From assembly GCA_951406725.2 (NCBI GenBank), contig OX597818.1, forward strand, positions 126,790,001 through 126,854,000: 64,000 nucleotides of DNA, written 5' to 3'. The position numbers were made by a program, and so were the translations under genes. The DNA is from Octopus vulgaris. Its lineage: Eukaryota. The notes under the pieces were generated by a model. It saw only the letters and a list, made by a program, of their open reading frames with translations. It ran no database searches and had not been told where the DNA came from. Every line of letters starts with the position of its first letter. Position 1 is the stretch's first letter. Below are positions 7,020-64,000 of the stretch, in pieces.

Positions 7020-7083
<64 letters not shown>

Positions 7084-7363: not shown

Positions 7364-7395
<32 letters not shown>

Positions 7396-8794: not shown

Positions 8795-8850
<56 letters not shown>

Positions 8851-9500: not shown

Positions 9501-9510
9501 CCTTCTATAT

Positions 9511-9563
<53 letters not shown>

Positions 9564-37094: not shown

Positions 37095-40000
37095 TGCATC
37101 AAATGAAATAAAAAACAGAACACAAAGGATGTCGCGGTACACGTGTTTCAATCTTTATAAAATAACCTATTCTTACATCAATGTGTAATCGACATAACAG
37201 ATAGTTTAAAGCTCTCTTCAGCCGCATGCAATTGCTATACCAAACAATTACATCACATGAAATTATGAAAAATCCGAAAATATACATTTGGTATTATCTA
37301 TAATGGTGGGTATATTGAGTTTCACTGAGAAAGTATGTTTGCAAATCTTCATAATCAAATATGTGTAGGGTAGCATGGGACTTCAAACATCCGTCCATAC
37401 TCTATCATCAGACATTGCATTATTGGGAAATCTCCCAAAATTTCCGGCAATTTCCGACCTATCCGGCAACCTCCGGCAATCTTTTTTTGAAAGATTTTAG
37501 AAAAATTTTCCACAAAAGTTTCTGAAATTTTTTCCGAAATATTTTAGAAAATTTTCTCCAAAATTTTTTAAAATCTCCCAAAATGCTATTTCACCTTCCT
37601 CCGGCTATATCCGACAATCTCCGGCAATCTCCGGCTATCTCTGGCCATCTCCGGATATCTACGGCAAATTCCGGTAATTTCCGGCAATTCCCCTCAATCT
37701 CCGGCAATTTCCGACAAATTCCTATCACTTCCGGCAATCTCCGAAAATTTCAGGCAATTCTCGGTAATCTCTGGCAATTTCCGTTAATTTCCGGCGTATC
37801 CGACAATTTCCGGCAATCTCCGGCTATCTTTTTCTGAAAGATTTTTTGAAAATTTTTCCCAAAAACTTTTCAAAATTTTCCCCAAAGATTTTAAAAAATT
37901 TTCCCCAAAAATTTTTTAAAATTCTTGGCAAAAAATTTTCAAAATTTTTTGCCCAAAGTTTTTCCCAAGAATTTTTCAAATCTTTCTCCAAAAATTTTTG
38001 AAAATTTTTCCATGCATCATTGGGAAATCTCCCAAAATGCTATTCCACCAATCACCGGCAATCTCCGGCCATCTCCTGCAATTTCCGGTAATTTCCGGCA
38101 ATCTCCGGCAACTTCCAGTAATTACCGGCAATCTCCAGCAATCTCCAGTAATCTCCGGCAATTTCCGGCATCTCCGACAATTTCCGGCAATGTTGGGCAA
38201 TCTTTTGTTGAAAGATTTTTTGAAAATTTTACCCAAAAGTTTTTAAAACTTTTTCACAAAAATTTTTCAAAATGTTTCCCAAAAATTTTCGAAACTTTTC
38301 CCCAAATTTCTTCAAAATTTTTCCTAAATGTTTTCAAAATTTTACCCCAAAATTTTTGAAAAACCTTCTCCAAAATTTGTTTAAATTTTCCCAAAAAGTT
38401 TTAAAAATTTTTCCGAAATATTTTAGAAAATTTTCCCCAATAATCTTTGAAAATTTTTCGCTGCCTTATTGGGAAATCTCCCAAAATGCTATTCTGCCTA
38501 TCTCCAGCAATCTCCGGTTATCTCTGGCAATCGCCGGATATCTCCGGCAATCTCCCGCAATTTCCGGCAATCTCCAAAATTTTGAGAAATTTTCGTTCAA
38601 AATCTTTCAAAATTTTTCCCCAAAAATATTTCAATAATTTCCCCCAAAATTTTTCTAAATTTTACCACAAAATTTTTGTAACTCTTCCCCGAAAATTTTT
38701 GAAAATTTTCCCCTAAAGTTTTTCAAAATTTTTCGAAATATTTTAGAAAATTTTCCCAAAAAAGTTTTGAAAAATTTTCCCTGCATTTTTGGGAAATCTC
38801 CCAAAATGCTATTCCGCCTATCTCCGACAATCCTCGGCTATCTCTGGCAATCTCCGGATATAACCGGATATCTTTGGCAATCTCCGGCAATTTCAGGCAA
38901 TTCCCGCCAATCTCTAGCAATTTCCGGTAATCTCCGATCACTTCCGGCAATTTCCGGCAATCTTCAAAGTTTTTCGAAATTTTCCCCCAAAAGTTTCAAG
39001 ATTTTCACCAAAAATTTTTCGAAAATTTTCCACAAATTTTTTGAAAATCTTCCCCAAAAATTTTTGAAAATTTTCCCCAAAAGTTTTTCAAAATTTTTAC
39101 GAAATATTTTAGATTTTCCCCAAATATTTTTGAAAATTTTTCCCTGCATTATTGGGAAATCTCCCAAAATGCTATTCCGCCCATCTCCGACAATCTCCGG
39201 CTATCTCTGGCAATCTCCGGATATCTTCGGCAATCTCCGGCAATTTCCGTCTAACTCGGGAAATTTCCGGAAATTCTCGGTAATCTCCGGAAATTTCCGG
39301 CAATTTCCGGCATATCCGACAATTTCCAGCAGTCTCCGCCTATCTTTTTCTGAAAGATTTAAAAAAAATTCTCCTCAAATGTTTTTGATAATTTTTTTGA
39401 AAATTTACCCCAAAAATTTTTGAAAATATTTTGAAAATTTTCCCCAATAATTTTTGAAAATTATCCCCCAAACTTTTTCAAAACTTTTTGGGAAATTTTT
39501 CACAAAAATTTTTGAAAATTTTCCTAAAAACTTTTGAAAATTTTCTATGAAAATTTTTTAAATTCTTGCTAAAAAATTTTCAAAATTTAGCCCAAAACCT
39601 TTCCCAAGAATTTTTCAAAGTTTTCACCAAAAATTTTTGAAAATCTTTCTCCAAAATTTTTCCCTGCATTACTGGGATATCTCCCAAAATGCTATTCCGC
39701 CAATTTCCGGCAATCTCCGGCTATCTCTGGCAATTCCGGCTATCTCCGGTAATTTCCGGCCCTATCCGGTAAATTTCGGTAATTTCCAGCAATTTCCGTC
39801 AATTTCTGAAAATTTTCAGCAATTTCCGGCCATTTCTTGTCATTTGCAGCAATTTCCGCTATATCCGAGAATTTCCGGCAATTTTCCCCAAAACGTTTTG
39901 AAAATTTTCACGAAAAATTTTCCCCAAAAGTTTTTCAAAGTTTCTCCCAAAAATTTTCGAGAATTTTCCCAAAAACTTTTGAAAATTTTTCTCTGCATTA

Positions 40001-40450
40001 TTGGGAAATCCCCAAAATGCTATTCAGCCAAACTCCGGCTATCTCCGGTAAACTCCGGCTATCTTCGACAAATTCCGACAGTCTCCGGCAAACTCCTTCA
40101 ATTTCCGGCAATTTTTTCCCAAAAATTTTTGAAAATTTACAACAAACATTTATGAAAATTTTCACCAAAAATTTTTGAAATGTTTCCCCCAAATGTTTTG
40201 AAAATTTTCCCAAATATTTTTGAAAATTTTCCCCAAAAATTTTTGAAATACCAAATGTACATTTTCGGATTTTTCATAATATCATAATGTGATGTAATTC
40301 TTTGGTATAGCAATTTCATGCGGCTGAAGAGAGCTTTAAACCATCTGTTGTGTCGATTACACATTGATGTAAGAATAGGTTGTTTTATAAAGCTTGAAAC
40401 ACGTGTACCGCGACATCCTTTGTGTTCTGTTTTTTATTTCATTTGATGCA
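37095..40450. mobile_element. Non-autonomous TIR (foldback-like) element with ~200 bp TIRs and an internal higher-order satellite
   Basis: 37095-37295 is the reverse complement of 40248-40450 (TGCATCAAATG...CATTTGATGCA). TA flanks both sides. Confidence 0.9.
37417..40247. repeat. Bipartite higher-order tandem array (10-bp CCGG blocks alternating with ~11-bp A4T4-5 blocks)
   Basis: Units begin gcattattgggaaatctcccaaaatgc at about 37417, 38014, 38463, 38783, 39146, 39666 and 39995 (partial at 37571). Each continues with (atYtccggca)n and then (aaaattttYYS)n. Confidence 0.92.
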
Positions 40451-44469: not shown

Positions 44470-45725
44470 TAGGTTGTCAAGAAAATTCTTGTGGAATTTT
44501 TTATTTTGGTTTTAAATGATGTATTTTCAAATTGATTTTCGTAAAAATTACTTTATATATCACTTTAAAGCCCGTTTTGTTTTTGCTCTATCTAATCGTG
44601 TTACTTTTTTTCTTGTTGAATATTTAGGCCATTTTTTCCGGAACGTTGAATGCAACATAGACAAAAAGCAAATTCGCACAATTTTCTTATTCCAGTTCAA
44701 GCTAGGCCGAAAAGTTGCGGAAACTGCTCGTGATATCAACGATGCGTTTGGCACAGGAACCACTAATGAACGCACAGCACAATGGTGGTTCAAATAATTT
44801 CGTACCGGTGACGAGAGTCTTGAAGGTGATAAGCGTAGTTGTCGGCCATTGGATGTTGACAACAATCAACTAAGAGCCTTAGTCGAAGCCAATCCACGCA
44901 CAACTGTTCGAGAGCTTGCTTCTGAATTATACGTAATGTAAATGACAATTTCCAACCACTTGAAAGAGATTGGAAAAAATACTTGAGAACTGGGTGCCGC
45001 ACGAATTGAACGACAACCAACAAAAAAATATGGTGTTTTGAAGTGTCATCTTCCCTTCTTTTACGCAACAAGAACGATCCGTTTCTCGACCGGATTGTGC
45101 CTTGCGATGAAAAGTAGATTCTTTACAACAATCGGCGACGCTCAGCTCTACAGCCCTTCCCGAAGCCAAAATTGTACCAAAAGAAGGTCATGGTGACTGT
45201 TTGGTGGTCTGCGTCCAGTCTCATCCATCACAGCTTTTTGGATCCAGGCGAAACCATTACGGCGGAGAAGTACTGTCAGCAAAAGGATGAAATGCATAAG
45301 AAACTCCGACAACAGCCAGCATTGGTCAATAGAATAGGACCAATTTTTCTCCACGTCAACGCTCGGCCGCATATCGCACAACTGACCCTGTAGAAGTTGA
45401 ACAAATTGGGCTACGAAACTCTGCCTTATCCGCCATACTCACCAGACCTCTCGTCTACAGACTACCACTTTTTCAAGCATCTCGACAACTTCCTGCGTGA
45501 GAAATACTTCAAAAACCAAGACGATGCCAAAAACGCTTTCAACAACTTCATCGCCACCAGAACGCAGGACTTTTACGCTACTGACACAAATAAACTTGTT
45601 TCGCGTTGGCAAAAGTGTGCTGATTCTGATGGTGTTTATTTCGATTAATAAAGTTTTGTATGAGCCGAGATATGTGCACCTGAATTTAAAGGTTAAAAAC
45701 CGCAAGAACTATCTTGACAACTTAA
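44470..45725 (+). mobile_element. Mariner transposon (Hsmar1/SETMAR-like), degenerate
   Basis: TIRs ttaggttgtcaaga and tcttgacaacttaa with TA flanks. Motifs KKQIRTIFLFQFKLGRKVAETARDIN, WVPHEL, QKKVMVTVWWS and YSPDLSSTDYHFFKHLDNFL. Confidence 0.95.
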
Positions 45726-45999: not shown

Positions 46000-48900
46000 C
46001 ATTTTTAGGTTGGTCACATCCTAAGCTACATTTTCAGGTATAAAATTTGAAAATTGCTTCGGTAGAAAAACGATTCAGCAAAATATGTGAGGTCAAAATC
46101 AAGAGAGTAAAATTACTTTCCAATAACACTGTGTGACAAAGTTTTATTTTAGCTTATATGATGCATGCACCTGCATTTTATTATTTCCTATGTGCTTCGA
46201 TCTAGAAACCAAAGGGAAGGACTACTATTCCCTTCAAACTTTGCTTTTTTGACTCGCATATCAATGTTTTGAAACCAAATATGCACGCACACGCACGCAC
46301 ACACACGCGCGCGCGCACATATACATGCAGAAAATTAATCGCTGTAAAGGGAAACTTCAAATATATACAAAAGAACGGGATAAATCACGGCTGAAATGCC
46401 CATTGTCAATGGTTTTCTCGCTCAGAGTTGATCAACGACCTAAATAACAAGAAAAAAAAAACAAGTTTGTATTCCGCTGGAATTGAATTTGGTTTCATTC
46501 TAACAGCTTCAGCGATAATAGTAAAGGGTCTTTAGACAGGGTCTATTCCTTTTGTTGGTTTGTGTCAACATAAGAACCCCATTTTACTTCTACGCTTATA
46601 TTATCTATGTTAATATCGGATCTGATCTGTGTCTTTCTATACAAATGCTATACTAAATATGAAGTATGTTTTTTAATATCAATCAAAACCTCGAGCCTCT
46701 TATTGTAATACTTTGTGTATGTTAATGAGAGAAGCCGAGGCACAAACTCTCCTAGAATGTTGAAATTTGTGCGGTAACAACTTAGCTTTACCTATAACTT
46801 AATTTATTGTGTGTTAATACATTTGTTTTAATATGAGACTCTATATCTAAATCACTGTTTGTTTTCATTCCGAATTTTAAGTTTATCAATGATATAATTC
46901 AGGTCAGGCTTGTAATTATTTGTGTCTATGTTATATTAGGAGAGGAAGTTTTGCTTAATCAAGTATACTATGTATTTGAAGTTTTCTGAGAATCAGTATT
47001 TTTCATTTGGAATTATGTGTGTTTCAGTTTTACCGCTGATACAACATTTATAAGAGTTTCAATGTTTCTTCTGATCTAAAATATCATGTATATAAATATT
47101 TTCTCTGGGTTTAGTTATTCTCTGAATTAGATTTAGTAGAGAAATTCGCACACATCAGAATTATTTTGATCTGAGATTTCCAGGTAATCAATTGTTTATT
47201 TCTGACTAAAGATTTATAGCGACTATAATATAATTTCTGATCGGAGATCTTATGTGTCCATGCTATCTATCTCTTATCCGATAATTGTAATGATTGTGGG
47301 TCACTTGTATAGAGCGAAGAATGCTCTTATGTATTAGCTATCGAACCCTGATTTCCTACAATTCTATAAATGTAAACACCAAGAATAGATATTTCATAGA
47401 GTACGAATGCAGTTAGCTTAATTGCTATTTGTTATTATGTGTAACTTTCTCTTCCAACTAATAGATAATAATTATTTTGATTTATCCATTTAAAGTATTA
47501 ACTCTCACAAAATCTGAGAGTAAACTCTCCTGTTATTGCAGATTGTTTCCATTTCCTTTAACCGAGAACACTTAACGTACGCCATTATAGCCAGAGTAAT
47601 TTCCTTTATATACAATATTACAAATGTGAAGCAGATTTTACGACGTTTCAACATAAATTGTTTTGCTGTTTTCATCTGCCTGTGGATGATTGAACTCAGT
47701 TATCTTGCGTAATATTTTTCAAATCATGCCCAGAGAAACACCAAACGACAAACTAGTGTAATTTACATGGGTATCTTGATAGCATATCAAAAGCATTAAA
47801 CTTTTGAAGAGTAATATCCTTAAAAGTGGTACTATAGTATGGAAGGAATACTCGGACTGTCCTGAATATTTAAGCTGTTCTTGAAAGATTTTACTTTCAT
47901 CAGAAACGACAGCAAAAGGACGAAATGTATGCCCCAAAAATCAGAGCCATGCTTGTAACTCTTTATTCTGATGTTATTCTGCATACAATTGTCATCATTT
48001 CTGTCTTCAATTAACTTGCTCTGCCAAAAACCATACAGAAACCAGAAGTTCATTAATATCATCAATAACTCTTTACCTAAGATTGGTATATCTAATGCCA
48101 TACTTCACTGGAATCACATTCTTCATTATTTTGTCCAGCATCATATTCAATTTTGGTGGTTACATTGCATATCTTTGCATGATCCATGCATTTTCCAAAA
48201 AGAGCTTACAAAATGCAGTGGAGAGGATTGAAAGAAGTTCAGTTATCATTACATGTTAAAACTGTGGTAGTACTAAAACTAACTATCGAAAGTTGTTAGT
48301 TATTTACAACACGCAGAGAAAGAAGTTTTTACTCGAGGCAATATCACATACGACAAAATTCCAATAAGATAATGATAAAATAGAAATAGGAAATCGAAAT
48401 TTAAAGCCATTTAACCTGCACTAACTCATAAATCATATGCGGACCAAACCTACTTAGAACACATATCGGGATATAATGTTTTTCGCACAGAATCTATAAA
48501 GGACAAATAAGTAAAATTGCTGTTATAAATATGAATAATCATCAATTTGAAAACGGGTCTCTTGAAGTATAAGGATGACAATTAGATAATACATTACCTA
48601 ATTACCGTAACATGTAACTGACACCGACTTACTACATTTTATCATAATAGGACAGGAAAGATTGCAATAATAGTAAAGCCATAATTTTTTTATAACCTCA
48701 GACAGAATTTATAAATTAATCTTCTTTGTAGCCACAGGTTTCCTTGGATGTCACGCCGTTATTGGTTCAACATTTTTATTAATTTTTAATCCGAATTATA
48801 ATAAACTACTCTTCCTCTCATCATTTTTTGTTTCGAAATAATAGCTTGATGTTGACACAATGTAGATGTTGTTTGATTATTCCTATACACAGCAATGCCT

Positions 48901-49971
48901 TCAGCCGGCAGAACACTATTTTATAATAGTTTTGCTCGTTAAATTTCACCTGCATTTATTGGATTACATACTTAGTAAACAATAAAATTTAGTAAATCCA
49001 TTAGCACATCGGTATTCAATATCTATGAATTTATTCATCAATACCCACTAAGGACATGTGTCAAGTAATTTAGCTAAAAGCACAAAATAGTGATATGCAA
49101 ATGTGAAGTGTATACCTAATGTTACATACATATAGCTGTTCAATTGTTAGCTATATCACCTATTTGTGACCTACTATGACATACGAAGTTTTGCATTCTA
49201 CTTTTGTGAATATACTTAATTTTTAAAAAAAGAGTTGCACATACATACTTCTGGTTGTATATCTAAATGCACGAGCGCCAAAAAAGTATAAATAGAAATG
49301 AATAAACGAACAAAAGCAAAGCTCATTAAAAGAATACGTATAATTTGTTATTCAGTTGTTGCATCTTTTATTGTTACTATTTTTTAATTACAATCAATAA
49401 AACATATTTTAAATAAATAGAAGTAGAGAAGAAATTAGAAAAATAAATATTCCTACGTGAAGGATTTTCGAAACAAATTGAAAATAAAATAATACATGAG
49501 TATTAAAATAGTAATAATTTCTATCTGATACGTAAGAGCAGAAATTAAAAAAAGGGAGGTGAAGTCGTGATATTCATGCCTTTTCCAAAGACACGACTAT
49601 CATAGTTAAAGGAAAGAATTGCAACCAGGAATTAAAACCATGTTGCAAGTGTCGATGCACTTACGTCAATTTCCATAACATGGGGATTCACTCAATGACA
49701 AAAATATTTGGTATCATTAAAAAAAAAATGAAAATAAGAAGGAACAGTATGGAAAGAAATAGGATAATAGGGAGAAGTTGTAGAAAGTAGACAATGAGAT
49801 AGAAAAACAATGCAAGGGTTTATAACAAAAAATAATATTTGACTACGCCATAAAACTGCGTTGAAGGTCAGCGATGCATTTTGGCAGTGACCAGTTTATC
49901 GGTTTCCCATTTGGTTCATAGTACTGTTACCCTGATAATGTTTAAAGATCGTGTTTTTTATGTTTTATGTT

Positions 49972-50037
<66 letters not shown>

Positions 50038-50177
50038 TTAATTTAATTTTTTTCTCCATTTATATATCTTAATCTTTCGTTTGTTCGTCAAAATAGGAAA
50101 GAAGTTCTGGCCGGCAATCAATCAGATGAGGACTGGTTTAAGGATGTGTTTACTTTCATTGAAGAATCTTGCTGAAT
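46000..50177 (-). other. Possible terminal non-coding (3' UTR) exon of the candidate peptide-precursor gene
   Basis: Good minus-strand acceptor ttatttatctctatgaatttcag| at 50178, followed by ~4 kb of AT-rich sequence almost free of transposons. The lower boundary is unknown. Confidence 0.3.
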
Positions 50178-50454
50178 CTGAAATTCATAGAGATAAATAA
50201 GTTTTTGAATTATATTGTAAAAACCGTGGGGCAATATGTTGGAAGAGTTGATTAAACGACAAGCAAAATACTTTTACATTTCCAATCAGAAGAGATACTA
50301 ATAGTCAAAATCCTAGAATCGTCGAATTCGTCTTTTATCGTTAAGTGGTCGAAAAATAATTACCAATTAAATACAGAGTTCTATTTAAACGACTACACAC
50401 TTCTTAAACGATTATTCTTATGTCTATATAATAAATCATTAGGACAATTATTGG

Positions 50455-50645
50455 TTTCAGCTTTTTGGCACAAGGTCAGTAATTTCAGGTGAGAGGTAAG
50501 TCTATTACATCGACACCAGGGCTCAAATAGTATTTATTTTATCACCCCCGAAAAGATGAAAGGCGTAGTCAACCTCGGCAGAATTTGAACTGAGAATGTA
50601 AAAGACCAACGAAATGCGTGCTAACGATGCTGCAAGCTTACCGCC
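50455..50645 (-). mobile_element. SINE family B, diverged
   Basis: Contains atcacccccgaaaagatgaaaggcgtagtcaacctcggcagaatttgaactgagaa. Confidence 0.75.
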
Positions 50646-50674
50646 TTAATCATTATTTTAATTCTTGAAAAATG

Positions 50675-50895
50675 TGACGAGCTAGTAGAATCATTAATGT
50701 GTGGCACAAAATGTTTAGCGGCATTTCCTCTGACTCTTTGCATTCTGAGTTCAAATTCTGTCGAGGTTGACTTTGCTTTTCATTTTCTTCGAAGTCGATT
50801 AAATAAGTACCAGTAGAGCACTGGGTTCGATGTAAGTGACTTAGCCCATGCCCTCAAAATTTCAGTACCTATGTTTATAGTAGAAAGAATTATCA
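50675..50895 (+). mobile_element. SINE family B, head-to-head with the previous copy
   Basis: Contains ttctgagttcaaattctgtcgaggttgactttgcttttcat...aaataagtaccag. Confidence 0.8.
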
Positions 50896-51099
50896 TAATT
50901 ATTAAAGACATTTAAAGCGAATTGATTGCTGATTGTGGAATTGTCAACGTTATATGGTTACATACAGGCTTTCATTGCCAGAATCCCGAGAAAATAGTAG
51001 TAATATGTAGGATGTTCGGGCTAAATTTGACGACATTTTTTGCCTCCTTTTTCTTTCATGAACAGCAGATGTATTGATGAATAGTCACTGACGTTGGAG

Positions 51100-51904
51100 A
51101 ACATAAACATTAAAGTTGTAGTTGAGAAAAAAGCTGATATGGAGGATTGGAAGCCATCTGAATATCGAAAAAGAATTACTTGTATCATTATGATTCACGC
51201 AGGTTATCAAAACGCCGACATCATGACTGATGCTTAATACTTTGTGAACGCTGACAAAGCTGAAAGATGTAACATGGACACCTGCAACGGAGACTACGTA
51301 ACTGTGACCAATAGGAGGGAACACGGCCGGCGTTCTGACAGCGTCCGTGTGGCGGAGTTCATCACTACATTTTTGAAGAGAGCTTTAAGCTCAATTTAGA
51401 CGGCTATGTGAATCTGTTAATGACTGTGGCCAAGCCCTGGCTGGATAGGGTTGCTTCTGGAAGGCCATATGTGTGACAGCAGGACTCGGCTCCTTGCCAT
51501 ACCCCAGAAAAGAGGCGGAAATAAATGTCGGAGTATTTCTACGACTTCACCAGACTCACCTTCTGGCTTCCTAATTCCTTCGAATGTAGTACCATGAATT
51601 GTTAGGTGTGGAGCGCGGTTGAGAAAGACACTAGAGCTCTGCCTGCAACATTAAGGCCGATTCGGTGGTCAAGATCGAGGAGGTGTTCTAAGATATCTCC
51701 AGAGACACAGTGAGGAACATATGCGTCATATTCTGGAGTCGTCTTAAGGCCGTGGCAATAGCTGGACACAGCTACTTTGAGTAAACTGTTATCGCCTAGC
51801 CATAATCTAGTTGATATTTTTGATCTTTTTAAAATACTATTATTTTTATCGATGATGTTTATTTTCTTTGTATGTGAACTGTCAACTTTCCTCGAACTCC
51901 CTGT
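51100..51904 (+). mobile_element. maT/DD37D (Bmmar1-like) Tc1-mariner remnant
   Basis: Translates YVNLLMTVAKPWLDRVASGRPYV*QQDSAPCHT and FWLPNS...VWSAVEKDT. TIR-like end ...gaactccctg|ta. Confidence 0.7.
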
Positions 51905-53141
51905 ACACTGGAAATCAAAGAAGTTAGTCATAAACTTCCCTCGCATATTCCTCATTCCTCAATCCATTAAGTCCAAGTCTACATAAATTCTTCTTTGTAT
52001 TTCATCTTCATGGAGTCGAATAGGTACTAGCAATGGAATACTGTCAATTCAAACAACTATATTTCTTCATTAAAGAGAAAGGCATTGAGCATATGGAGCG
52101 TTCATTATCAAAGACGTAATTGATAAAGATGTAGTGAAATGGCTACAACCTAGAATCGAAGCCAACTCGCTGTGTTCCTATCCTCTTTAGCAGAATAGCT
52201 TACTGTTTTTATACAGGGCAATGTGTGACGTATTTTTTTCTATCATCCTGCTCATTATCGTAAGTTCTGTAAACTTCCAGAAACGCTGCAGGCACTTTTC
52301 TAAGACGGACTATTTTGTGTAACTTCAAATCAATTGTTGTTGAGCAGACATATGATCAAAGACACTTCAACTATGACCCTCTTTTTTCTACGATTATCTA
52401 GGACTACATTATTTCATGTAGTCTCTCTTATATAATACGATGGAGTGTGGTTCGAAGAAGATTTCGTTGATATCTGTAGTTGATAAAACCACTTCTTAGA
52501 TGCTTCCTCTTTGTAATATAATAACATCAATCCTGCAATGATACACAACGTAAGAGAAACAGTGAAAGTCTGCTTCCGATGTTGTTAACCTTACCTTTAA
52601 ACTGTTCTTAGATTACCAAAGCAGTAGTTTTATACTGTTTCCTTCCCTTAGTTCACGTGATTTACATCATCATCATCATCTTAATCAACATCTTAATCAT
52701 TGTCGTCGTCGTCGTTGTCGTGGCTATCATCATCATCATCGTTACCGCTGTATTTTAATGATTTAGAACCTACATAGGATTTATTGCAACCTGCTTCGAT
52801 TCTTCAACTTGCCATCGATCCTAAATTTTTATCTATCTTTATCCAAATTCACTAATCTACAAATTATAGTCTACTAATCTAACATACTAAGGAGCTATTC
52901 TATTCAGCTAATCAGCTGCACCAAGTCCGATGTATTGACTAAAACTCGAAGTTCTAACATGAATGGGTTTTGTGATGTTTCTAAATCTAAGTGACTGTAA
53001 ATATATAAATATAAAAACTGGACAGCTTTCATTTTAAAACAATGAAATAAATAAATAAATTTCAGAGAGCGAGAGTGAGAGAAAGAGAGAGAGAGACAGA
53101 CAGAGAAAGAAAGAAATCAAATGCCTCACCATTTCTTTAGA

Positions 53142-53247
53142 TTACTCAGTCTTTGCAAGTCTCTCTGCTGCAAATCGGATCAGTCTTTGAGCCAGAATTG
53201 AACGTCTGATGTCGTCACTTGATATGTCACTACGTTTTTTCTTGCCG
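53142..53247 (-). CDS. Candidate final coding exon of an amidated neuropeptide/prohormone precursor (exon 53130-53247)
   Basis: Acceptor ttttgcttacgattttag|, reading frame (x)GKKKRSDISSDDIRRSILAQRLIRFAAERLAKTE*, and donor ATG|GTGAGG 12 nt after the stop. Confidence 0.55.
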
Positions 53248-53394
53248 CTAAAATCGTAAGCAAAACTAAGTGTAAAGGAACCAGTGTAGGGAAAAAATGT
53301 CTTGTTATTAAAATTTTATCAAATTAAGTGAAAAGATCTCGCCAGTAATTAATTTTAACTTTTCAAATCAAAAGCTGTTGGAAAGGTGTGTGTT

Positions 53395-53436
<42 letters not shown>

Positions 53437-53473
53437 TATGTGTGTGTATGTGTGTGTGTGTGTGTGTACTTAC

Positions 53474-53504
53474 CTCAAAAATATAACAGTGCAGCATCTC
53501 TTTT
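53474..53504 (-). CDS. Possible upstream micro-exon (31 nt) of the same gene
   Basis: Perfect donor GAG|GTAAGT in phase 2, compatible with the next exon, giving (x)KRCCTVIFLS|GKKKR. The acceptor tttaag| is weak. Confidence 0.3.
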
Positions 53505-55270
53505 CTTAAATATGATTAATTGTTTAAGCTAAGATTACAAATTTATTACCAATTTATAACTACGGAACTAAGATTATGTTTAATAGCTTACAAACAAAAT
53601 CGAAACCGTATGATGAATTAGGGACATTAAAAAGTGATTATTATCTATAAAAAAACATTCGATATTGTTCAATTTTATAATCGTTATAGCTCACTGGATC
53701 GCCAACGAATGTTGTACTTTCCTGTTATTTGTGAAAGGTCTTTGCCTTAAGTTATAGAAGCCAACCTGTAAAAGTTGCCCCTTCCTTCAGGAGACTCGAG
53801 ATAACATCTTGGACAAATGGTAGCAATCTATCTAGGCTACTCATCTAGGTTTAAGCTGAATTCTAAAGCCAGGCAAAACTGTTGGACAAGTGTTATGTAT
53901 TCCCTTCAACTGTGGATTGAGGATGGTGGCTGCTCTCAATATATTATTGGTATTTTACTATCAAGACACTAGGTACGACATTAGACCAATTCTCCCTCAA
54001 TTCTCCTGATGCAATAGAATATCATTGTACTGCGTAAAAATAGAACACTTATAGATTTACTTGTCCTTCGCATCATTCATAGTAAGTCTGCTTACATCAA
54101 CATATCAAAGCAGTAGCAGCGATCGACGGATGCTCTATTTCCGTTTTTCAAAGGCTTTTATTAGGCCGATTTGATAACTGTTTAGTTTTAAACGAAATGT
54201 AAAAGTATGACATGAAATAGAACCTACATTGCCAGCGCAACTTGCCAATTTTCGACTATCTGTAGAATTTGCTATAATTTAAGTTCATTTTCATTTTTTG
54301 GATTAGGTATTAACTTACTCAGCCACAACTACCACCAATACCACCACCTACACTACCACCACCACCATCTACGGCACCACCACCACCGCTACTACTACTA
54401 CTACTACTATCCAGTGGCGATTGTACCGATACTGCCAAGAGCTTTTGTATAGAAAGAGATAAGGATATAGAAAATAATTCAATATTAATCACGAGATCGA
54501 CCAAGTGCACAAAGTCATCATGTACGTGTACGTGTGTTTTATGCGCACATGTCTCTGTATGTGTTATATATAAGTGCGAACTTCAATTCAAAGACTGTTG
54601 TATGTATGTATGTTTGTAATTATGTGTGTATGTATGCATGTATGTATGTATTTACATATGTATGTATGAATGCATGTATGTATGAGTGCTTAACAAACCG
54701 TGAAGCGGTCAGGCATGACACTTCTCTTTTGTTTTATGCGCATCACAGGTAGAGAAAAATGTGTCTACATGCTAAATATTTCTCTTAAAGTCAGGTCTGC
54801 TAATATTTATATTTATTTCAGTGTTTCTGACTCACACTGTTTTATGCATAATATATCTGTTAAAGACGACTCGTCAAAAGCACAATTATATAAACTAAGC
54901 AATCCACCACAGTTATAGCCTAATTTATAACTGCTTTATATAGCAGCTGAATATTAGTGATTGAAATCGAGTATATATCTTAGCGGAGAGGTCAACAATC
55001 CGTGAAATGATCCATAAGAAAACTCCAATTAGATTTTCTGTTCATCGAAAGCATGGGACCGGTTACATGAAAGGAAGAGCTTGAAATATAAAGAACTAGT
55101 TAGAAAATGGCAGGGATAGAGGCTTCTAACTGATGTGGGTTGCCATGTGTTAGCAGCTAGGTCTATTATGTCCTGCTTAGCTCATTTGACTTTTATTTTT
55201 TTTTTTGTCACTTACCCTCAGCGTTTGCGTCGAATTGTTTGTCGATGTAGAAAAGTTGGAAGGTAAGAGG

Positions 55271-55316
<46 letters not shown>

Positions 55317-55322
<6 letters not shown>

Positions 55323-55528
55323 AAGTCAGTCGTTACATCAAGGCGGATGTTTAATGTTACTACTAGTTTAATCCCAGGTTATCTGCACACGCACCAATAA
55401 CCAGCTGGCAGGGAATCTGCCTGGGGTTAAGCTAGTAGTAACATTCAACAGCCACTTTGATATATCGACTGACTTTACTATTTAGTATAGTTACCACTCT
55501 ATCTCAAGAAGAGATAGAGTTGTAACTA
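55317..55528. repeat. Imperfect inverted repeat (62 bp arms) plus a second 18 bp-stem hairpin, between (TA)n tracts
   Basis: 55317-55378 versus 55420-55481 shows about 8 substitutions and no indels. The second hairpin tagttaccactctatctc-aagaa-gagatagagttgtaacta spans 55488-55528. Confidence 0.88.
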
Positions 55529-55544
55529 ATTTGATTATATATAT

Positions 55545-56198
55545 ATTTTATTATTATTTTTTTTATCTAGTTTCAGCTCACGAGCTGTGGCCATGCTGGG
55601 GCACCGCCATTTGGTGTTGCTATATAATTTTACTTCACGAATGCTTTTTAGCAATTGCCATTTGGTGCATGAGAGAGTTCGATGCAGCTGCCCTCATCTG
55701 CACCTCCTGTCGTGAAGTTGGTTCATCTGGGACACCTGACAGGAAGAGATCCAGTTTTATTTTAAAGACATCTGCATCCACCCCATGCAGGTCTCTCAGG
55801 TTCTTCGGGAGGATATTGAAGAGCTGTGGGCCTCTGAAGCCCAGGCTATCACAGTATCTTGTCCTACATCTTGATGGCAAATTTGGAGTCCTTGGCACTA
55901 TGCAGTGGCGCCCAGTTCTAGCATTTGTGTAACTCTCGATGCCAAAGTTTGGGACAAGTCCTTCTAGTATCTTCCAGATGTATATTATGGCATATCTTTC
56001 TCGCCTACGCTCTAAGGAATAGAGTCTTAATCTCTTGAGTCTTTCCCAGTAGCTTATATGCTGCACAGAGGCTATCTTCTTCGTGTAGCTTCGTTGGATC
56101 GCCTCAAGTTCTGTGATTAACTTGACACTGGATGGTGACCATAGCTGAGAGCAATAGTCAAAGTGGCTTAGGATAAGTGTCCTCCAGAGGACCATCAT
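55545..56198 (-). mobile_element. CR1-clade LINE 3' end, young
   Basis: Uninterrupted ORF 55635-56198 (LSHFDYCSQLWSP..LEAIQRSYTK..YWERLKRLRLYSLERRRER..GPQLFNILP), then a short 3' UTR and A/TAA tail. Confidence 0.93.
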
Positions 56199-56257
56199 AT
56201 ATATGTTTATCGAATTTGTGTTAATGTGTATAGAATAAATATATCAGTTATATAAAC

Positions 56258-56530
56258 AATTGCATCGTTGAGATGTTTGTAAGCCATTTAAGAACACACA
56301 AAACCCGTTAGTTTCACTTCAACATTTAAATACACAAAATGTCGTCAATGAACAGGTCGCGGTTTGGAAGCGATGAAAATATTTTGACACAAATTTAATT
56401 TAAATATTGAAGTGAAACTGACGGTTTTTTTGTCCTTAAATGGCCGACAAGCATCTTCCACGCTGCAATTGTTTTTGCTTCAGCACACGATCTCAGATCA
56501 TGTTACTTGCAATGCAGGTACATCTCCGTA
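56258..56530 (+). mobile_element. PLE-like family H copy with an inverted 5' partial duplicate and a degenerate hammerhead (56344-56388)
   Basis: 56258-56332 is the reverse complement of 56398-56472 (diverged). Motif gtca-ATGAACA-ggtcgc..gcgat-GAAA-atattt-tgac. Confidence 0.75.
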
Positions 56531-57109
56531 TTGTGTGTGTGTGTCCTCTGACGTATTTTGTAATATGCATTCGTGCTTCTGTGAGTGTATGTTTGCATGG
56601 GAATTGTTAGATTTGAGAACACGTTTGCGAATGTTTGTGTATTCTTGTGTTTGTATGTGACTGTAAGATTGTGTGTTTCTGTGCGTTCGACTGCGTTTTG
56701 AAATGCTTTTCGTAAATTTGGCATTCAACAATGGAGAGTACTAGATTTTTAAAACGTCAAGTGATATTTGATATTTTTGAATCGCTTGGTCAGCAAATAA
56801 TACATATTTAGAGAATAATATTTAAAAAACAAGAAAGAAAGTTAAATGTTGAAAGTATGTCACATCAGCAAGAAATTCTGAACTATAAATTAACAAGGAT
56901 GACGATAATTATGACAATGATGACGATGATGATGATGAGAAGGAGTGGGAGGAGGAGGAAGAGGAAGGGAAGGAGGAAGAGGAAGAGAAGGAGGAGGAGG
57001 ATAGCGATGATGAAATCTAAGATGTGTGACAGGAATGCAGTAAGACGTAAATATATGTGAAAAGTCAGAAATATATACAGAAAATACATAATAACGAAAT
57101 ACAAAAAGA

Positions 57110-57790
57110 ACACTTGATAATACGAAATATATTGAAGTATATAGAAACATAAACATTTAATAATGAGGAATATTTAACATAAACTTTTAATAATGAGAAA
57201 CATTTAAACATAGAGAAATATATATCAAACAATGAAACATATATTTAAGTATATAGAAATACATTTACATTTAACAATGAGAAATACATTTAAGCATATA
57301 GAAATATATGAAATATGAAAAATACATTTAAACATATAGAAATACATATATACACACACATATATACGTTTAACAATGAAAATGCATTTAAGCATACAGA
57401 AATACATATAAAAGTGAGAAATACATTTCAACATACGGAAATACAATTTACATTTAACACTGAAAAATAATTTCTTAACATAGAAATATATGTGTGTGTG
57501 TGTGTGTGTATCTATGTGTGTGTATATACGTGTGTGTGTGCGTGTGTCTATATATATATGTATGTATGTATATATACATATATATATATGTGTGTGTGCG
57601 TGTGTGTGTGTGTGTGTGTATGTATATATACGTATGTATACACACACACACATATTGAATGCTTTTGACAATGAGAAATATATTTACACACAGAAATATA
57701 TACAATTAAGAAACAAGAAATACATTTAACATATAGAGGTATATACATGTATGTATATATATGTATATGTAGATATAGAAATATAGAAAT
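57110..57790. repeat. Degenerate AT-rich minisatellite interrupted by CA/TA microsatellite
   Basis: Recurrent aatgagaaatacatttaa / catatagaaata units. Confidence 0.7.
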
Positions 57791-57796
57791 CTATGC

Positions 57797-57854
<58 letters not shown>

Positions 57855-57855
57855 G

Positions 57856-57889
<34 letters not shown>

Positions 57890-57894
57890 ATATA

Positions 57895-57939
<45 letters not shown>

Positions 57940-58679
57940 ACATGTATATGTATATATATATGTGTGTGCCTGTGTGTGTATCTGTGTATTTTTGTGTGTA
58001 ACATAGATATTTACAAAGTGATTGAGATGTCTATTTAGCATTAAAAGAAATCGGTTCAGGTTATTTGAGGTCAGTTTTGGTCTCGACTCCTCGTAACTTT
58101 CTCTCTCACCATCATCTCAACTTTATTCATTAGAATATTCGGCCACAGACCCTCCATCGACTGCTACAGATTAGGGATTCCAACAGAGCTTTTCGTTCAT
58201 GTGAACGTCTTTTTCCAAGATATTATCTTCACGGGGTGACAGACATTAGTAATTTAAACCAATGATGCCCTCATCAAGACTTTTGAGATGCCACTTCTGC
58301 TGATCTAGAGTTGTTTGAACTACGCGATCGATATTTGCAAATAGATGAGATGGACTTATGTTACCAGCAACGCCATGATATCTGTGCTGGCCATAGATAT
58401 TGTGGCGTAGTTTGTAACATATGGAGAATATTACAAAAAAATTAAACGTTTCATTAACCATAATGAAAACATAAAGAAAAAGTAAACAATACCAGCAACA
58501 GCAATAATAATAAATGAGTTTTCAGTGTAGGAATATATTTATAAATATGCTTATGTATGTATTTTGTGCATATGTATGTGTATATTAATTAGTTTGGTCC
58601 AAAGAAAAGGCTGCTTTCGTAGATTTCTTAACCCCACTCTCCATAGACCCGAGGTCTATGTGGTTAATTGAAAATTAAT

Positions 58680-59250
58680 GTTTGCAAAAAAGAAAAAATG
58701 CTGGATGGGAGCCCAAGAGATACCGATCTTCTTGGAGAGCAGAACTGGAAGCAATGGTAAGAGCGAGATTATGAGGGCGAGGATTTTTCACTGCATGTGT
58801 GAAAGAAACTATTGAATTTGCAGTTTTGAAATGGTTGAATGAATCCGGTGCAAAGTCAAACAATTCCGAAGAGAAGAAATGACTGAAGTAGTGTCGAAAA
58901 AAAGCAGAGAGAAAAGATAAGCACATATGTGGATCAGAAGTTGATCTATATATAAGATGGAGAGCAATTTCATGAGAATCAGTCATGGAGCGATTTTCTA
59001 GCAGCGCTCTAGATTGTCACTAAATGTGTAATACTAGACACGACATAGAAGTATTAATTTATAGTTTTTACTTGTGCTTTGCAATGATTAGCAGTTCTAA
59101 CGGAGAGGGATCTGCATTGCATTCTGATATCAAGGATGAAAAATCAAACTTCTTGATTTAGTCTTTCCCATGCTGAGGATGTACAATGACCAAGATAGAT
59201 TCTGGAAGAGGCAGAGGCGCAGCATTTGTAACAACCATTAACATTTTAGA
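58680..59250 (-). mobile_element. Old CR1/L2-group LINE 3' remnant
   Basis: ORF 58675-58986 reads CLSFLSAFFRHYFSHFFSSELFDFAP, resembling LSLFYRYFxGxCSSELxxLVP. Confidence 0.4.
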
Positions 59251-59257
59251 TGCAGGT

Positions 59258-59590
59258 TACTCTCTTTTACTCTTTTAGATGTTTCAGTCATTTGACTGAG
59301 ACCATGTTGGAATACCGCCTTTAGTCGAGCAAATCGACCCCAGGACTTATGCTTTGTAAGCCTAGTACTTATTCTATCGGTCTCTTTTGCCGAACCGCTA
59401 GGTTACGGGGACGTAAACACACCAGCATCAGTTGTCAAGCGATGTTGGAAGAACAAACACAGACACACAAAGGTATACACACACACTCATATATATACAT
59501 ATATACGACGGGCTTATTTCAGTTTCCTTCTACCAAATCCACTCACAAGGCTTTGGTCGGCCCGAGGCTACAGTAGAAGACACTTGCCAG
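59258..59590 (-). mobile_element. SINE family A, 5'-truncated
   Basis: Match to the family body and tail. Confidence 0.88.
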
Positions 59591-60343
59591 GTTATTCATA
59601 TTTTAGCATTTTTGTTTTCTCTTTTTGTGTGTGTATGTGTGTGTGTGTGTATGTGTGCGTGTGTGTGTGTACGTGGGCGTGCGTGCGAAGGCTCAAAAAT
59701 ATTGTTCCGGTCCTGTTACTAACCGATGAAATAATATATTTCCACCTTTAAAAAAAATGCACCTTGGTGAAGTTTTGAAAGGATTTAGGAGAATTTTCAC
59801 TGCTATAACCGACCCATTTTATTAATGGTCTCAAACGAACAAGTCGATAGTAAAGGGATTCGAATTCAGTATTTGCTGAAAATAAGCAGCATAAGGCACT
59901 TGATTATTGCTTTCGTGGTTGTATAAACTTCATCGACCCATCGTACACATTTGATGATACAAATGCAATGGGAATCAATGAGGCTTCATAGTGTTTGCAA
60001 AATATCTTACTGATTCCATGTTTGTAGCAAAAACAACTTTCACCAAGGGAAAAGAAACAAAAAAAAAAAGACAGATTAAACTGAACTAGGAAAGAAAGAA
60101 ATGGATTTCTTACATAGGCATAAGGTCACACATTTTCGGCGACAGAAAGATCGAATATATCCGAAACAATACTGGATCCGTATTCCTATTATCGACCCCA
60201 CAAAGATAACCTCCTCATCGGCAAGATTCGAATTTCGATCGTAAACGTTTGTAACTACATGCCACAAGGCAGATCTAATATTGATTATATCTAAACATTG
60301 ATTATAGAATGTAGATGAATTTTTAAACTCACTATCCATATTG

Positions 60344-60402
<59 letters not shown>

Positions 60403-60403
60403 C

Positions 60404-60474
<71 letters not shown>

Positions 60475-60609
60475 AGATGTACTCGCATAGCAAGTAATTT
60501 GATCTGAGATCGTGTGCTGAAACGAAAACAATTGCAGCGTGGAAGGTGTTTATAACCCATTTAAGAAACACACAAAAGCCGTTCGATTCACTTCAACATT
60601 TAAGTTTAA

Positions 60610-60659
60610 TTTGTCAAAATATTTTCGTCGCTAAAATCCGCGACCTGTTCACTGACAAA
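60610..60659 (-). ncRNA. Hammerhead variant with G3-C8 core pair
   Basis: Mirror image of 60682-60731. Confidence 0.7.
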
Positions 60660-60681
60660 AATCCGTGCTGCATCACGGATT

Positions 60682-60731
60682 TTTGTCAGTGAACAGGTCG
60701 CGGATTTTAGCGACGAAAATATTTTGACAAA
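60682..60731 (+). ncRNA. Hammerhead variant with G3-C8 core pair
   Basis: tttgtca-GTGAACA-g-gtcgc(ggatttta)gcgac-GAAA-ata-TTT-tgacaaa: 7-bp stem I, 5-bp stem II, palindromic AATATT stem III. Confidence 0.7.
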
Positions 60732-60808
60732 TTAAACTTAAATGTTGAAGTAAATCGAACAGCTTTTGTGTGTTTCTTAAATGGGTTATAAACACCTTCC
60801 ACGCTGCA

Positions 60809-60883
<75 letters not shown>

Positions 60884-61227
60884 GAAATTTTCATCAATAG
60901 GGTCAGCATTTGAATTAAATAAATGAATGCTGGTTGTGTAATGGAGCGATTAACACTTCATAGTCTTCCTTAGATGTGGTGAAGTTCTTTCTTCTCATAA
61001 CACTGAAAAGCCATACGTAAAACTTCAATAAAAATTGAGATTTCGGTCACTGGTTTCTCGAGAAAAATGTTGTCTTTGTTTAATTTAACTTTTAACTCAA
61101 ATCTAAGGAAACTGAAAATGTTCTTCCACGTATGTAATGTTTAGGAAACAGCCATTACTTCAAAGCAATTCATAATTGAAGAAGTGTATAGACTGCACAG
61201 GATTCGTTTAATAGCACATATACAGAC

Positions 61228-61650
61228 ATAGCTGTGTTGTAAGAAGCTTGCTTACCAACCACATGGTTCCTGGTTCAGGCCAGTGCGTGGCACCTTGGGC
61301 AAGTGTCGTCTAATATAACCTCGGGCCATCTAAGCCCTATGAGTGGATTTAGTAGACGGAAACTGAGAGAAGCCCGTCGTGTGAATATATGTATGTGTGT
61401 GCATGTGTGCATGTGTGTGTATGTGCTTGTGTGCGACTTTGTGTCTGTGTTTCCCTACCCCATTCCATGACAACCGGTGTTTACGTCCCCGTAATCTAGC
61501 GGTTCGGCAAAGCAGTCCGATAGAATAAGTACTAGGCTTAAAAAGCAAGACCTGGGGTCGGTTTATTCGACTAAAATCCATCAAGGTGCTGCTCCAGCAT
61601 GGCTGCAGTCAAATGACTGAAACTAATAAAAGAATAAAAGAATAGAAGAA
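61228..61650 (+). mobile_element. SINE family A, full length, diverged
   Basis: Head, CORE-like segment, internal microsatellite and taaaagaa tail. Confidence 0.88.
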
Positions 61651-61872
61651 TATATATATATGTATACGTATATATAAATACATATGAATGTATTTATGTA
61701 TGTATGCATGTATGTATATATATATATATATATATACATGCACATATATTATTAAGAGAAATATCCTCTATTATGCAATCTAATAGTGAAAGACATTATC
61801 CATATATAGAAAAAATTAAATATACTATAATAAATATTTTTTTAAATCAATAAATTGAAGAAACATTAAACT

Positions 61873-61986
61873 GACTACGCGCATTTCGTGACTATATCTT
61901 TAAATCGATAATGATAAGATCGATACTATTAAAATAAATTCGATTTAAAATTAATTCGATTTAAAAATATAGCCACTTTTCAGGTC
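61873..61986 (-). ncRNA. Type I hammerhead motif with a long stem II (G8A change)
   Basis: gac-CTGAAAA-gtggctatat...atatagtcac-GAAAT-gcgc-GTA-gtc. Confidence 0.6.
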
Positions 61987-62533
61987 TAAAATAAAATAAA
62001 TGTATGTATCTGAACATATAATAATTAACAAATAAATATAGAAATATACGTATCGTAACAATAAATAATCGAATAAAATTTAACAATATTAATGAAAAAT
62101 AAAATCATAACATCTTATTGAAGAATACCAGTCAACTGAAATTGTAAATTTTAAACTTAGAACCTAGTGTTTCTAAGAAATTTATCACGTGGAAACATGA
62201 CATAAATAATAACTAGAGAATAAATTGATAGAAATATGTATCTTAGCTGTGAAAATAAGAAATAAACTAGATGTAACATACCATTTATTGAAAAATTCTA
62301 AATTCTCAATAATTTAAGACTAAAATACGTAAAATACATAAAATATACTAAATTTCTATAACTTAATCTATATTCATCAATCTATTTATTTATTTTATAA
62401 ACAATTTGGTTTAGTCTAATTCTAATTGTGCAATATACCCTACATAATCTACTGCTAATTTATACTCATTATACAACTACAATTTATAACTACAAAAATT
62501 AGTAACATAAATCAGTGTTTATATACACACAAA

Positions 62534-62935
62534 TTAGCTAAACTTATTATATAAATAATTTAACTTATGCCTACATGTAATTTTTCGCTCATCTTGCAAA
62601 TTAATGAATTTTTTATTATTAGATAGTAATATCTCCATAAATTCATTTGTACATAGTAAACAAAAATGTTTACCTATTCGATAAGATTTAGATTTACAAA
62701 CTATTTCCCAATTTAAATTATACTTAGTTCCTTTAGATTTCAATCCCCATACATATTTGCTAAGGCCAGTAGAATTGGTCAATGTTTTATTTTTAAATGA
62801 ATGCATGTGTTGAGCTACCCTTAATTTAATTTTATTAGAAGTCGACCCCACGTAAATCGCATTTAAATTATAGCTATTCCTATTAATATTTTCATCAATC
62901 AAAGTCACTACACATTTATATACTACATCATCCAA
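62534..62935 (-). pseudogene. PLE GIY-YIG endonuclease domain
   Basis: VVYKC..YVGST..KLRVAQHMHSF..STGLSKYVWGLK..CLLCTNE..CRHK. An in-frame TAA lies just upstream. Confidence 0.9.
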
Positions 62936-64000
62936 ATTACATTTATTTTAAAATTTACATTTTGTCATATCTCTACATGTACAATTAATTATATTCTGGT
63001 CTTTATTATTATTAGAATAATTATTCAATTTGTTAATGTAAGACTTATTCAGCTTAAATTTATTAAAAGAACAAATAATGTTACCAATATTATTAGTAGT
63101 AGAATAACCAACTCCAAAATTATTACTAGAAAGAAATGTTATATTTTTATTATCTATAATGAATACTTCAATTAGTTTTAATATCTCTTTAATAATGTTT
63201 CTTTTAACTTGAGCCCCATAAGAAATAATTATATAAATTTTATTTTGTTCTTATTATTAACATTATTTATTTTTATTAAATTATTATATCTATTATTATC
63301 ATTAAACAATTAAATTTATTTTTATCTTTTAGTCTATTATATTTGTTTTTTGTATTATCGTAATTCCTATTATTAAAACCATAATTACCTAAATAATATA
63401 TATATATTTATACACGTGTTGAGGCTGTAAGTACGTATGCATGTTTGTATACATGCATGTGCGTTTGTAAGTATGAATTTATGCATGTATATATATATAT
63501 GTATTTACATATGTATGCATGAATGTCTGTATGAATTACGTATGCACGCGTGTATTAATTTATACATATATATGTATGTATGTGTGTGTATGTATGTATC
63601 TCTCTATGTATGCATTCATGTATGTACACATAGATTGAAGCACTGTGACGTTAGAGTTGGGTGCGTTAATTGTAAACATCTGCAAGGTGAAATATTGGAA
63701 GAGTGGCGAATGTAGCACATAAGGCACTCTTTAGAACGTGTGAATATAGCGTAATTTAGAGATAAGCTAAATCCGTTTTGACAAGATGTACATAGCATCA
63801 CGGTATGATATAGAATACATAGCCATGCTATGGTGATAGGGTGTACGTTTACAGGGTGCTCTAAAAGTAACAAAAAAAGGATAAATCCATGTGTCACATG
63901 TGAAGAAACATGCCTTTGTCTTGGTGAACACGATGTAATCAAACTTTGACGCAGTGAAACAATAAAAGATATTGAAAAAAAGGGGAGGAGCATGTAAAGA

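What the first reader, a model, noticed from the sequence alone, without database searches (positions are those of the whole stretch)
53130..53504. Hidden candidate neuropeptide-precursor gene: amidation/cleavage signal GKKKR at an exon start
Seen: a 118-nt minus-strand exon with a clean acceptor and donor encodes (x)GKKKR-SDISSDDIRRSILAQRLIRFAAERLAKTE*. The stop is 12 nt before the next donor, which is compatible with escape from NMD. A perfect phase-2 donor 226 nt upstream would join to give KR-CCTVIFLS-GKKKR. Established: Gly followed by basic residues signals convertase cleavage and C-terminal amidation. Inference: a short secreted-peptide gene, possibly yielding CCTVIFLS-amide (vicinal Cys) if the micro-exon is real, or another amidated peptide if the true upstream exon lies elsewhere. 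I do not recognise the family, and I found no signal-peptide exon in the window.
Basis: partly seen in the sequence, partly recalled or inferred. Interest (0 to 1): 0.75.

Follow-up and report, generated by a model that had tools for sequence, protein, structure and literature searches.

The report
Octopus iPTH/QSamide neuropeptide gene, already published

Summary
The exon is real. Contigs of 3 of 4 laid runs span 53247(53246)-53130 and splice on to a 3' UTR exon at 50177. It is the shared last coding exon of the iPTH/PXXXamide/QSGamide precursor. NCBI holds it as 'uncharacterized' or 'hypothetical' in three Octopus species. Table S1 of PMC7224569 lists the O. bimaculoides orthologue as a PTH-type precursor with three transcripts. 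The signal-peptide exon and three in-frame peptide exons lie 12-26 kb upstream, outside the window. Loose ends join two of them directly to 53247. The CCTVIFLS micro-exon is not supported, though minor use is not excluded. Splicing of this gene family into QSamide or PXXXamide forms is published for oyster (PMC8398477). One side result was not found in print: an inverted duplicate 1.15 Mb away, with intact frames and splice sites. Its peptide exons differ at 20 of 108 residues, against 1 of 63 in the signal and last exons. Selection is suggested but not proven (pN/pS test p=0.09), and its expression is not shown.

The parts
53130..53247 (-). Shared last coding exon (118 nt, phase-2 acceptor). 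Its upstream exons lie beyond the window's end, at window coordinates continued (genome = C5:126790000 + position): cassette B 65537-65439, cassette A 70900-70781, cassette C 71976-71863, signal-peptide exon 79142-79054
   Evidence: Sequence; contig records end at both boundaries; matches P0002-P0005 at 94-100%; upstream exons mapped; X1 loose end equals the last 30 nt of B, X5 loose end the last 29 nt of A plus one base
53232..53246 (-). GKKKR: glycine amide donor plus polybasic convertase site (processing predicted)
   Evidence: G plus basic residues is described as strictly conserved in iPTH precursors (PMC7224569)
53142..53231 (-). 29-residue C-terminal extension peptide and stop codon
   Evidence: conserved in the Argonauta (P0008) and unnamed Sepia-like (P0010) proteins
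50178..53129 (-). Intron in the 3' UTR (2,952 nt, GT..AG)
   Evidence: Records X12:10, X2:17, X5:28 skip it; ends read
49343..50177 (-). Terminal 3' UTR exon; ATTAAA at 49388 and AATAAA at 49372; 3' end approximate
   Evidence: Contigs of all 4 runs stop at 49343-49358; signals; contigs cannot show an exact end
53468..53497 (-).
   Evidence: low-depth contigs run 400-930 nt upstream of it without a break, and X1 and X5 join across it
53248..64000 (-). In-window part of the 12,191-nt intron between cassette exon B (outside the window) and the last coding exon
   Evidence: X1 joins exon B to 53247 across it

Best explanation
The exon is the shared last coding exon of the octopus iPTH/PXXXamide/QSGamide neuropeptide precursor gene, spliced to alternative upstream peptide exons so that its GKKKR would amidate and release whichever peptide is joined to it. 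Shown: exon 1 carries the ATG and a hydrophobic leader. Three cassette exons of 114, 120 and 99 nt each begin with x-KR, are multiples of three and are phase 2 at both ends, so any choice stays in frame. Two of them are seen joined straight to 53247. A 3' UTR intron follows 12 nt after the stop. Inferred from established neuropeptide processing: signal peptidase, convertase cuts at KR and KKKR, carboxypeptidase trimming and PAM amidation would give QLADM...IEKS-amide and QTGDI...VHAS-amide (pyroglutamate, one disulfide) or TSSDQ...VDAI-amide. Where two cassettes are kept (models P0003, P0005, P0008), only the one next to the last exon would be amidated. Inferred from insect and tick orthologues: the peptides likely act on the class B GPCR orthologous to PTH/glucagon/PACAP receptors, as brain-gut or neuroendocrine signals.
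For: Spliced contigs at both boundaries in 3 of 4 runs, and upstream joints in 2 of 4. The X12 and X2 records break exactly at 53247, as expected where several upstream sequences converge. Full-length proteins exist in three Octopus species, Argonauta and Ostrea edulis. All four upstream exons map with GT..AG ends. Table S1 of PMC7224569 prints O. bimaculoides transcripts 1-3, one for each cassette exon, with a last exon differing from ours at 2 of 34 residues, as in P0005. The oyster QSamide3/PXXXamide gene is differentially spliced the same way, and its mature peptides were detected by MS (PMC8398477). Receptor activation is shown in Tribolium (EC50 63 and 413 nM) and Ixodes. Of the 9 ESM Atlas rows with a family for P0004, 8 are neuropeptide precursors, at 0.87-0.90, a lead only.
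Against: No peptide or receptor data for octopus were obtained. PMC8557429 (2021) says the QSGamide-receptor pairing was not proven in Lophotrochozoa. The name-giving Pro at -4 is Val in the octopus exon-B peptide. No Pfam family matched, 0 of 6 proteins. The laid runs are RNA by guess only, although splicing at GT..AG ends shows RNA. Only 24 of 441 loose-end rows were shown, and no joint of exon C to the last exon was among them. SignalP was not run.
Confidence: 0.94

Rival explanations
1. A 24-nt micro-exon ending at 53474 is a fourth, minor cassette and would give CCTVIFLS-amide after a monobasic Arg.
For: The donor is a perfect consensus, in the right phase and kept in the duplicate. It is the only AGGT[AG]AG in the 12,191-nt intron. 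AGGTAAGT occurs 7 times on both strands of 234 kb, two of them this site and its duplicate, so by my arithmetic chance placement within 300 nt is under 1%. Model P0006 skips all three cassettes, so splicing here is flexible.
Against: The only in-phase acceptor is purine-rich (0.42) and drops the KR. Contigs in X1, X2 and X5 run 400-930 nt upstream of the donor without a break, at depth 15, 9 and 11 against 2733, 149 and 351 on the exon (contig depth is a crude measure). None of the database proteins that I read (P0002-P0006, P0008-P0011) and none of the three published O. bimaculoides transcripts has it. Caveat: the tool skips the repeat at 53384-53477, and even the true 53130/50177 joint is missing from the 15 of 17 joint rows shown, so absence there proves nothing.
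Confidence: 0.04
2. The stretch is non-coding or read in another frame, and KKKR is chance or a nuclear localisation signal.
For: G[KR]{1,4}R motifs are common: 51 six-frame hits in the window.
Against: The other two frames stop after 5 and 21 codons. This frame is conserved to Argonauta and cuttlefish-like proteins, and full precursors start with a hydrophobic leader.
Confidence: 0.01
3. The second copy on C5 is not a paralogue but the other allele, placed in inverted orientation by the assembly.
For: The inverted match runs for at least 114 kb and was still going at the end of what I fetched, as a folded-back haplotig would. One X1 intron contig is a mosaic: 9 of 13 compared differences equal the second copy. 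No expression of the second copy was seen.
Against: The copies differ by 3.3% substitutions in exon flanks (125 of 3752), and at 15 sites in 53478-53879. Organism B's contig differs from the window at only 5 sites there, and X1's at 3 in 932. O. sinensis has a second locus (P0004) with the two residues that mark the second copy, K at the end of exon 1 and T17 in the last exon, though on a 48-kb contig. The copies differ by indels of many kilobases.
Confidence: 0.2

Closest known systems
Octopus bimaculoides PTH-type precursor, transcripts 1-3 (Xie et al. 2020, PMC7224569, Table S1)
   Same: Same signal exon, same three alternative peptides, same GKKKR-led last exon; RefSeq XP_014776777 matches the exon-1, A, B and last-exon stretches at 94-100%.
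   Different: A few substitutions (QRLIRF against QKLIQF; L/I in exon B; N/K in exon C). This genome holds a second, diverged copy.
Crassostrea gigas QSamide3/PXXXamide gene (PMC8398477)
   Same: One gene, differential splicing to either QSamide or PXXXamide peptides, including two-peptide transcripts, with a shared last exon starting with G plus basic residues.
   Different: The oyster transcripts printed in Table S1 of PMC7224569 show one QS-type and two PXXX-type peptides; octopus has two QS-type and one PXXX-type, and lacks the Pro at -4.
Insect and tick iPTH with PTHR-type class B GPCRs (PMC7224569; bioRxiv 10.64898/2026.06.22.733765)
   Same: Signal peptide, KR, SD near the N-terminus, G plus basic residues, C-terminal extension.
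   Different: Usually one peptide per gene; receptor activation is shown there and not in octopus. iPTH has under 12% identity to vertebrate PTH: the name rests on the receptor.
Vertebrate calcitonin/CGRP gene (recalled, no call)
   Same: Alternative splicing yields different amidated class B GPCR ligands from one gene.
   Different: There each peptide exon carries its own amidation signal; here the signal is shared on the next exon. An analogy of logic, not membership.

Membership tests
iPTH/PXXXamide precursor | N-terminal signal peptide | tested here: met
   Hydrophobic core at residues 5-15 (mean KD 3.09), V-N-A before R22 (the -3/-1 rule is recalled). SignalP not run.
iPTH/PXXXamide precursor | Dibasic KR before the mature peptide | tested here: met
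   FKR, SKR and VKR open exons C, A and B.
iPTH/PXXXamide precursor | Conserved SD near the N-terminus of the mature peptide (PMC7224569) | tested here: met
   Exon B reads TSSDQRIAEL, as in the Sepia and Crassostrea sequences of Table S1. Exons A and C keep the D only.
iPTH/PXXXamide precursor | G plus basic residues after the peptide, then a C-terminal extension | tested here: met
   GKKKR plus 29 residues.
PXXXamide in the strict sense | Pro at position -4 | tested here: not met
   The exon-B peptide ends D-V-D-A-I. PMC7224569 calls this Pro only mildly conserved and lists the octopus sequence under iPTH, so I file it under iPTH/QSGamide, not strict PXXXamide.
QSamide/QSGamide | N-terminal Gln, C-terminal Ser-Gly, Cys pair (read from the name and from the Platynereis and Crassostrea sequences in Table S1, not from a stated definition) | tested here: met
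   Exons A and C start with Q after KR, carry C-x4-C and end in S|G.
QSamide/PXXXamide spliced genes | Alternative splicing of peptide exons onto a shared last exon | tested here: met
   X1 joins exon B and X5 joins exon A to 53247. These are runs of two organisms, so two isoforms in one species were not shown here. Database models differ in exon use.
iPTH | Activation of a PTH-receptor orthologue | not testable with these tools
   Shown in beetle and tick; unproven in Lophotrochozoa as of PMC8557429. No title among the 7 listed reports it.
iPTH/QSamide | Mature amidated peptide present in tissue | not testable with these tools
   Detected by MS in oyster; no octopus data obtained.

The most novel reading that the evidence does not exclude
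The common-octopus lineage carries a second, inverted copy of its PTH-type neuropeptide gene whose three mature peptides have been driven apart by positive selection while the signal and C-terminal exons stayed fixed: six ligands from two genes, the new set tuned to a different receptor or tissue, with a 3' UTR rebuilt by a deletion.
Probability: 0.25. Interest if true: 0.5.

Novelty: already known. Interest (0 to 1): 0.2.

Why it matters
As given, the finding re-discovers a published neuropeptide precursor that databases still call uncharacterized. Its practical value is a name and an exon map for the gene, and three defined peptides for the open test of whether molluscan QSGamides activate the PTH-type receptor. 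The duplicate would matter more: if it is expressed and under selection, it is a young natural experiment in ligand divergence for a class B GPCR in a cephalopod.

Tried and rejected
Run search: no RNA holder listed on record; 22 of 24 rows hold part of the stretch and 4 were laid. Pfam: 0 of 6 proteins matched. ESM Atlas structure rows were all under the bar and are meaningless for this low-confidence model. A search for proteins of 30-85 residues with the duplicate's model P0009 found no candidate, which says nothing on its expression. The duplicate's diagnostic base at 53197 was not among the 40 of 57 difference rows shown: inconclusive. An A-run loose end at 49728 that I first noted as poly(A) is a genomic A-run on the wrong strand; corrected. 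P0007 (1137 aa, 9 stretches, 47% identity) was dropped unread as a likely repeat-protein hit. YVSEEELRSKR-like tblastn hits fall in a stretch that matches in the other orientation, likely a repeat, and were dropped. A venom role for the duplicate was considered; passages of bioRxiv 10.64898/2026.02.02.703354 name QSG only in an abbreviation list among the places shown, so there is no support. Earlier findings of the scan: nothing. No paper in the library names the three LOC ids. No fold or complex job was sent, because it would not change the reading. The receptor gene was not searched for in the genome.

Full report
Observation. The window is microsatellite-rich animal DNA at G000:C5:126790001-126854000. 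The 118-nt minus-strand exon, its splice sites, the GKKKR frame and the stop 12 nt before the donor are as described. The motif alone is weak, with 51 six-frame hits in the window, so I tested transcription and homology.

Transcription. Four of the 22 holder runs were laid on 46400-55500; their RNA status is a guess by the tool. Records of X12 and X2 cover 53130-53247 and one of X5 covers 53130-53246, each continuing at 50177: 3 of 4 runs. The skipped part has GT..AG ends, which shows spliced RNA. Contigs of all four runs end at 49343-49358, just past ATTAAA (49388) and AATAAA (49372). The stop thus lies 12 nt before what appears to be the last junction, which by the 50-nt rule (recalled) escapes NMD. 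At the acceptor, the X1 loose end equals the last 30 nt of an exon ending at 65439, and the X5 loose end equals the end of an exon at 70781 (compared by eye; positions above 64000 are window coordinates continued, genome = C5:126790000 + position). Only 24 of 441 loose-end rows were shown.

Identity. A 40-residue query found 4 proteins among 15 candidates, named uncharacterized or hypothetical in O. vulgaris, O. sinensis (two loci) and O. bimaculoides. P0002 lies on a contig of the same length as C5, so the window is most likely O. vulgaris. Further relatives came from Argonauta, Ostrea edulis and an unnamed Sepia-like protein. tblastn placed a signal-peptide exon at 79142-79054 and three cassette exons at 71976-71863 (C), 70900-70781 (A) and 65537-65439 (B), all outside the window. 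Each cassette starts with x-KR, is a multiple of three and is phase 2 at both ends. Database models use A, C, C+B, A+B or none. Pfam has no model.

Literature. PMC7224569 (seen: passages, Results part 1 of 2, Table S1 part 1 of 2 plus term hits; one page of that file holds no text) deorphanised beetle PTH receptors with PXXXamide, renamed it iPTH, and prints three O. bimaculoides transcripts matching exons C, A and B. PMC8398477 (passages, no figures or supplements) describes differential splicing of the oyster QSamide3/PXXXamide gene and MS detection of its peptides. PMC8557429 (passages) equates iPTH/PXXXamide with QSGamide and states that the receptor pairing was unproven in Lophotrochozoa. 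The tick preprint (passages) confirms receptor activation. PMC6425005 (one passage) only names the family. The cuttlefish paper that coined PXXXamide was not read. Supplements of the two bioRxiv preprints were not seen and could mention octopus QSG peptides.

Mechanism. Shown: exon order, frames, two upstream joints and the 3' UTR intron. Inferred from established neuropeptide processing: the amide-donor glycine and polybasic site sit on the shared exon, so splicing decides which peptide is amidated. In two-cassette transcripts the upstream peptide would end at the next exon's x-KR without an amide. Inferred from arthropod orthologues: action on a PTH/glucagon/PACAP-type class B GPCR, in nervous system and gut. 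The physiological role in octopus is not established; gut, gonad or neuroendocrine signalling is my best guess from the oyster and beetle expression data.

Micro-exon. The donor at 53474 is a perfect consensus and rare: 7 AGGTAAGT on both strands of 234 kb, and the only AGGT[AG]AG in its 12-kb intron. I cannot explain it beyond chance. Its one in-phase acceptor is purine-rich and would drop the KR. Low-depth contigs run upstream of it without a boundary, and the seen joints bypass it. The joint table is blind near this repeat, so minor use is not excluded.

Duplicate. A second copy lies inverted 1.15 Mb away, in a block matching at 88-99.8% over at least 114 kb. All five coding exons keep frames and GT..AG sites. 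Whole-codon counts give 20 of 108 residues changed in the peptide exons against 1 of 63 in the signal and last exons (Fisher p=5e-4); a further R/K change in the split codon ending exon 1 was left out. pN is 0.095, pS 0.033, and flanking introns differ by 0.033. Against the mean flank rate the excess has p=1.3e-4, against the most diverged flank p=0.13, and the direct pN/pS test gives p=0.09; these tests are post hoc. The window's copy equals O. bimaculoides in exon A and at 31 of 32 residues in exon B, so most changes fall on the duplicate. Against a clean story, Argonauta shares three exon-B residues with the duplicate, one exon-C change likely arose in the window's copy, and a 3.1-kb intron tract is 99.8% identical, suggesting gene conversion. 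The duplicate has lost the 3' UTR acceptor by a deletion equivalent to about 51822-49415 but keeps the poly(A) signals. It has no match to the two far-upstream exons of model P0002 within the 150 kb fetched. It may be a functional paralogue, a decaying copy or an assembly artefact. I found no description of it in searches, which cover only an open-access library and were judged mostly by title.

Verdict. A real, expressed neuropeptide gene of a known family, with its orthologue and isoforms in print since 2020. Already known; interest 0.2.

Noticed in passing
G000:C5:125636871-125751291 (L039, L009-L019) against window coordinates -46600 to 166039: Inverted duplication of at least 114 kb at 88-99.8% identity that holds a second copy of the gene; the duplicate's side is far more compact in places. 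The inner end was not reached.
   Followed up: partly
L004:1199-4297 (window coordinates continued 75199-78297): 3.1-kb intron tract 99.8% identical between the two copies, against about 95% around it: recent gene conversion or assembly cross-over.
   Followed up: no
window 51656-52464: X1 intron contig with 20 differences from the window; 9 of 13 compared equal the duplicate, but it lacks the duplicate's indels and runs past its deletion: a mosaic haplotype.
   Followed up: partly
P0006: A 64-residue database protein joins exon 1 straight to the last exon and would give a short RYIPEEELS-amide; source unnamed.
   Followed up: no
L031:945-2109 (window coordinates continued 144945-146109): Model P0002 draws its N-terminal extension from two exons about 66 kb upstream of the ATG exon; they may be 5' UTR exons translated by the annotation.
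   Followed up: partly
window 37490-40249: Complex satellite alternating 10-mer (CTCCGGCAAT-type) and 23-mer (AAAATTTTCC-type) arrays with a 320-363-nt higher-order period; no match to it in the duplicate among the listed alignments.
   Followed up: no
window 6351-7388 and 8492-9515: 1-kb inverted repeat, 97.7% identical.
   Followed up: no
window 20328-21178, 26371-27092, 27621-28475, 44516-45648, 22887-23710, 55635-56243, 62534-62947: Broken ORFs that look like DNA transposases (hAT-like, Tc1/mariner-like) and LINE endonuclease/reverse transcriptase or GIY-YIG fragments; labels recalled from the translations, not tested.
   Followed up: no
window 50352-50959: Very high contig depth with many loose ends in all four runs: a high-copy dispersed repeat in the 3' UTR intron.
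   Followed up: no
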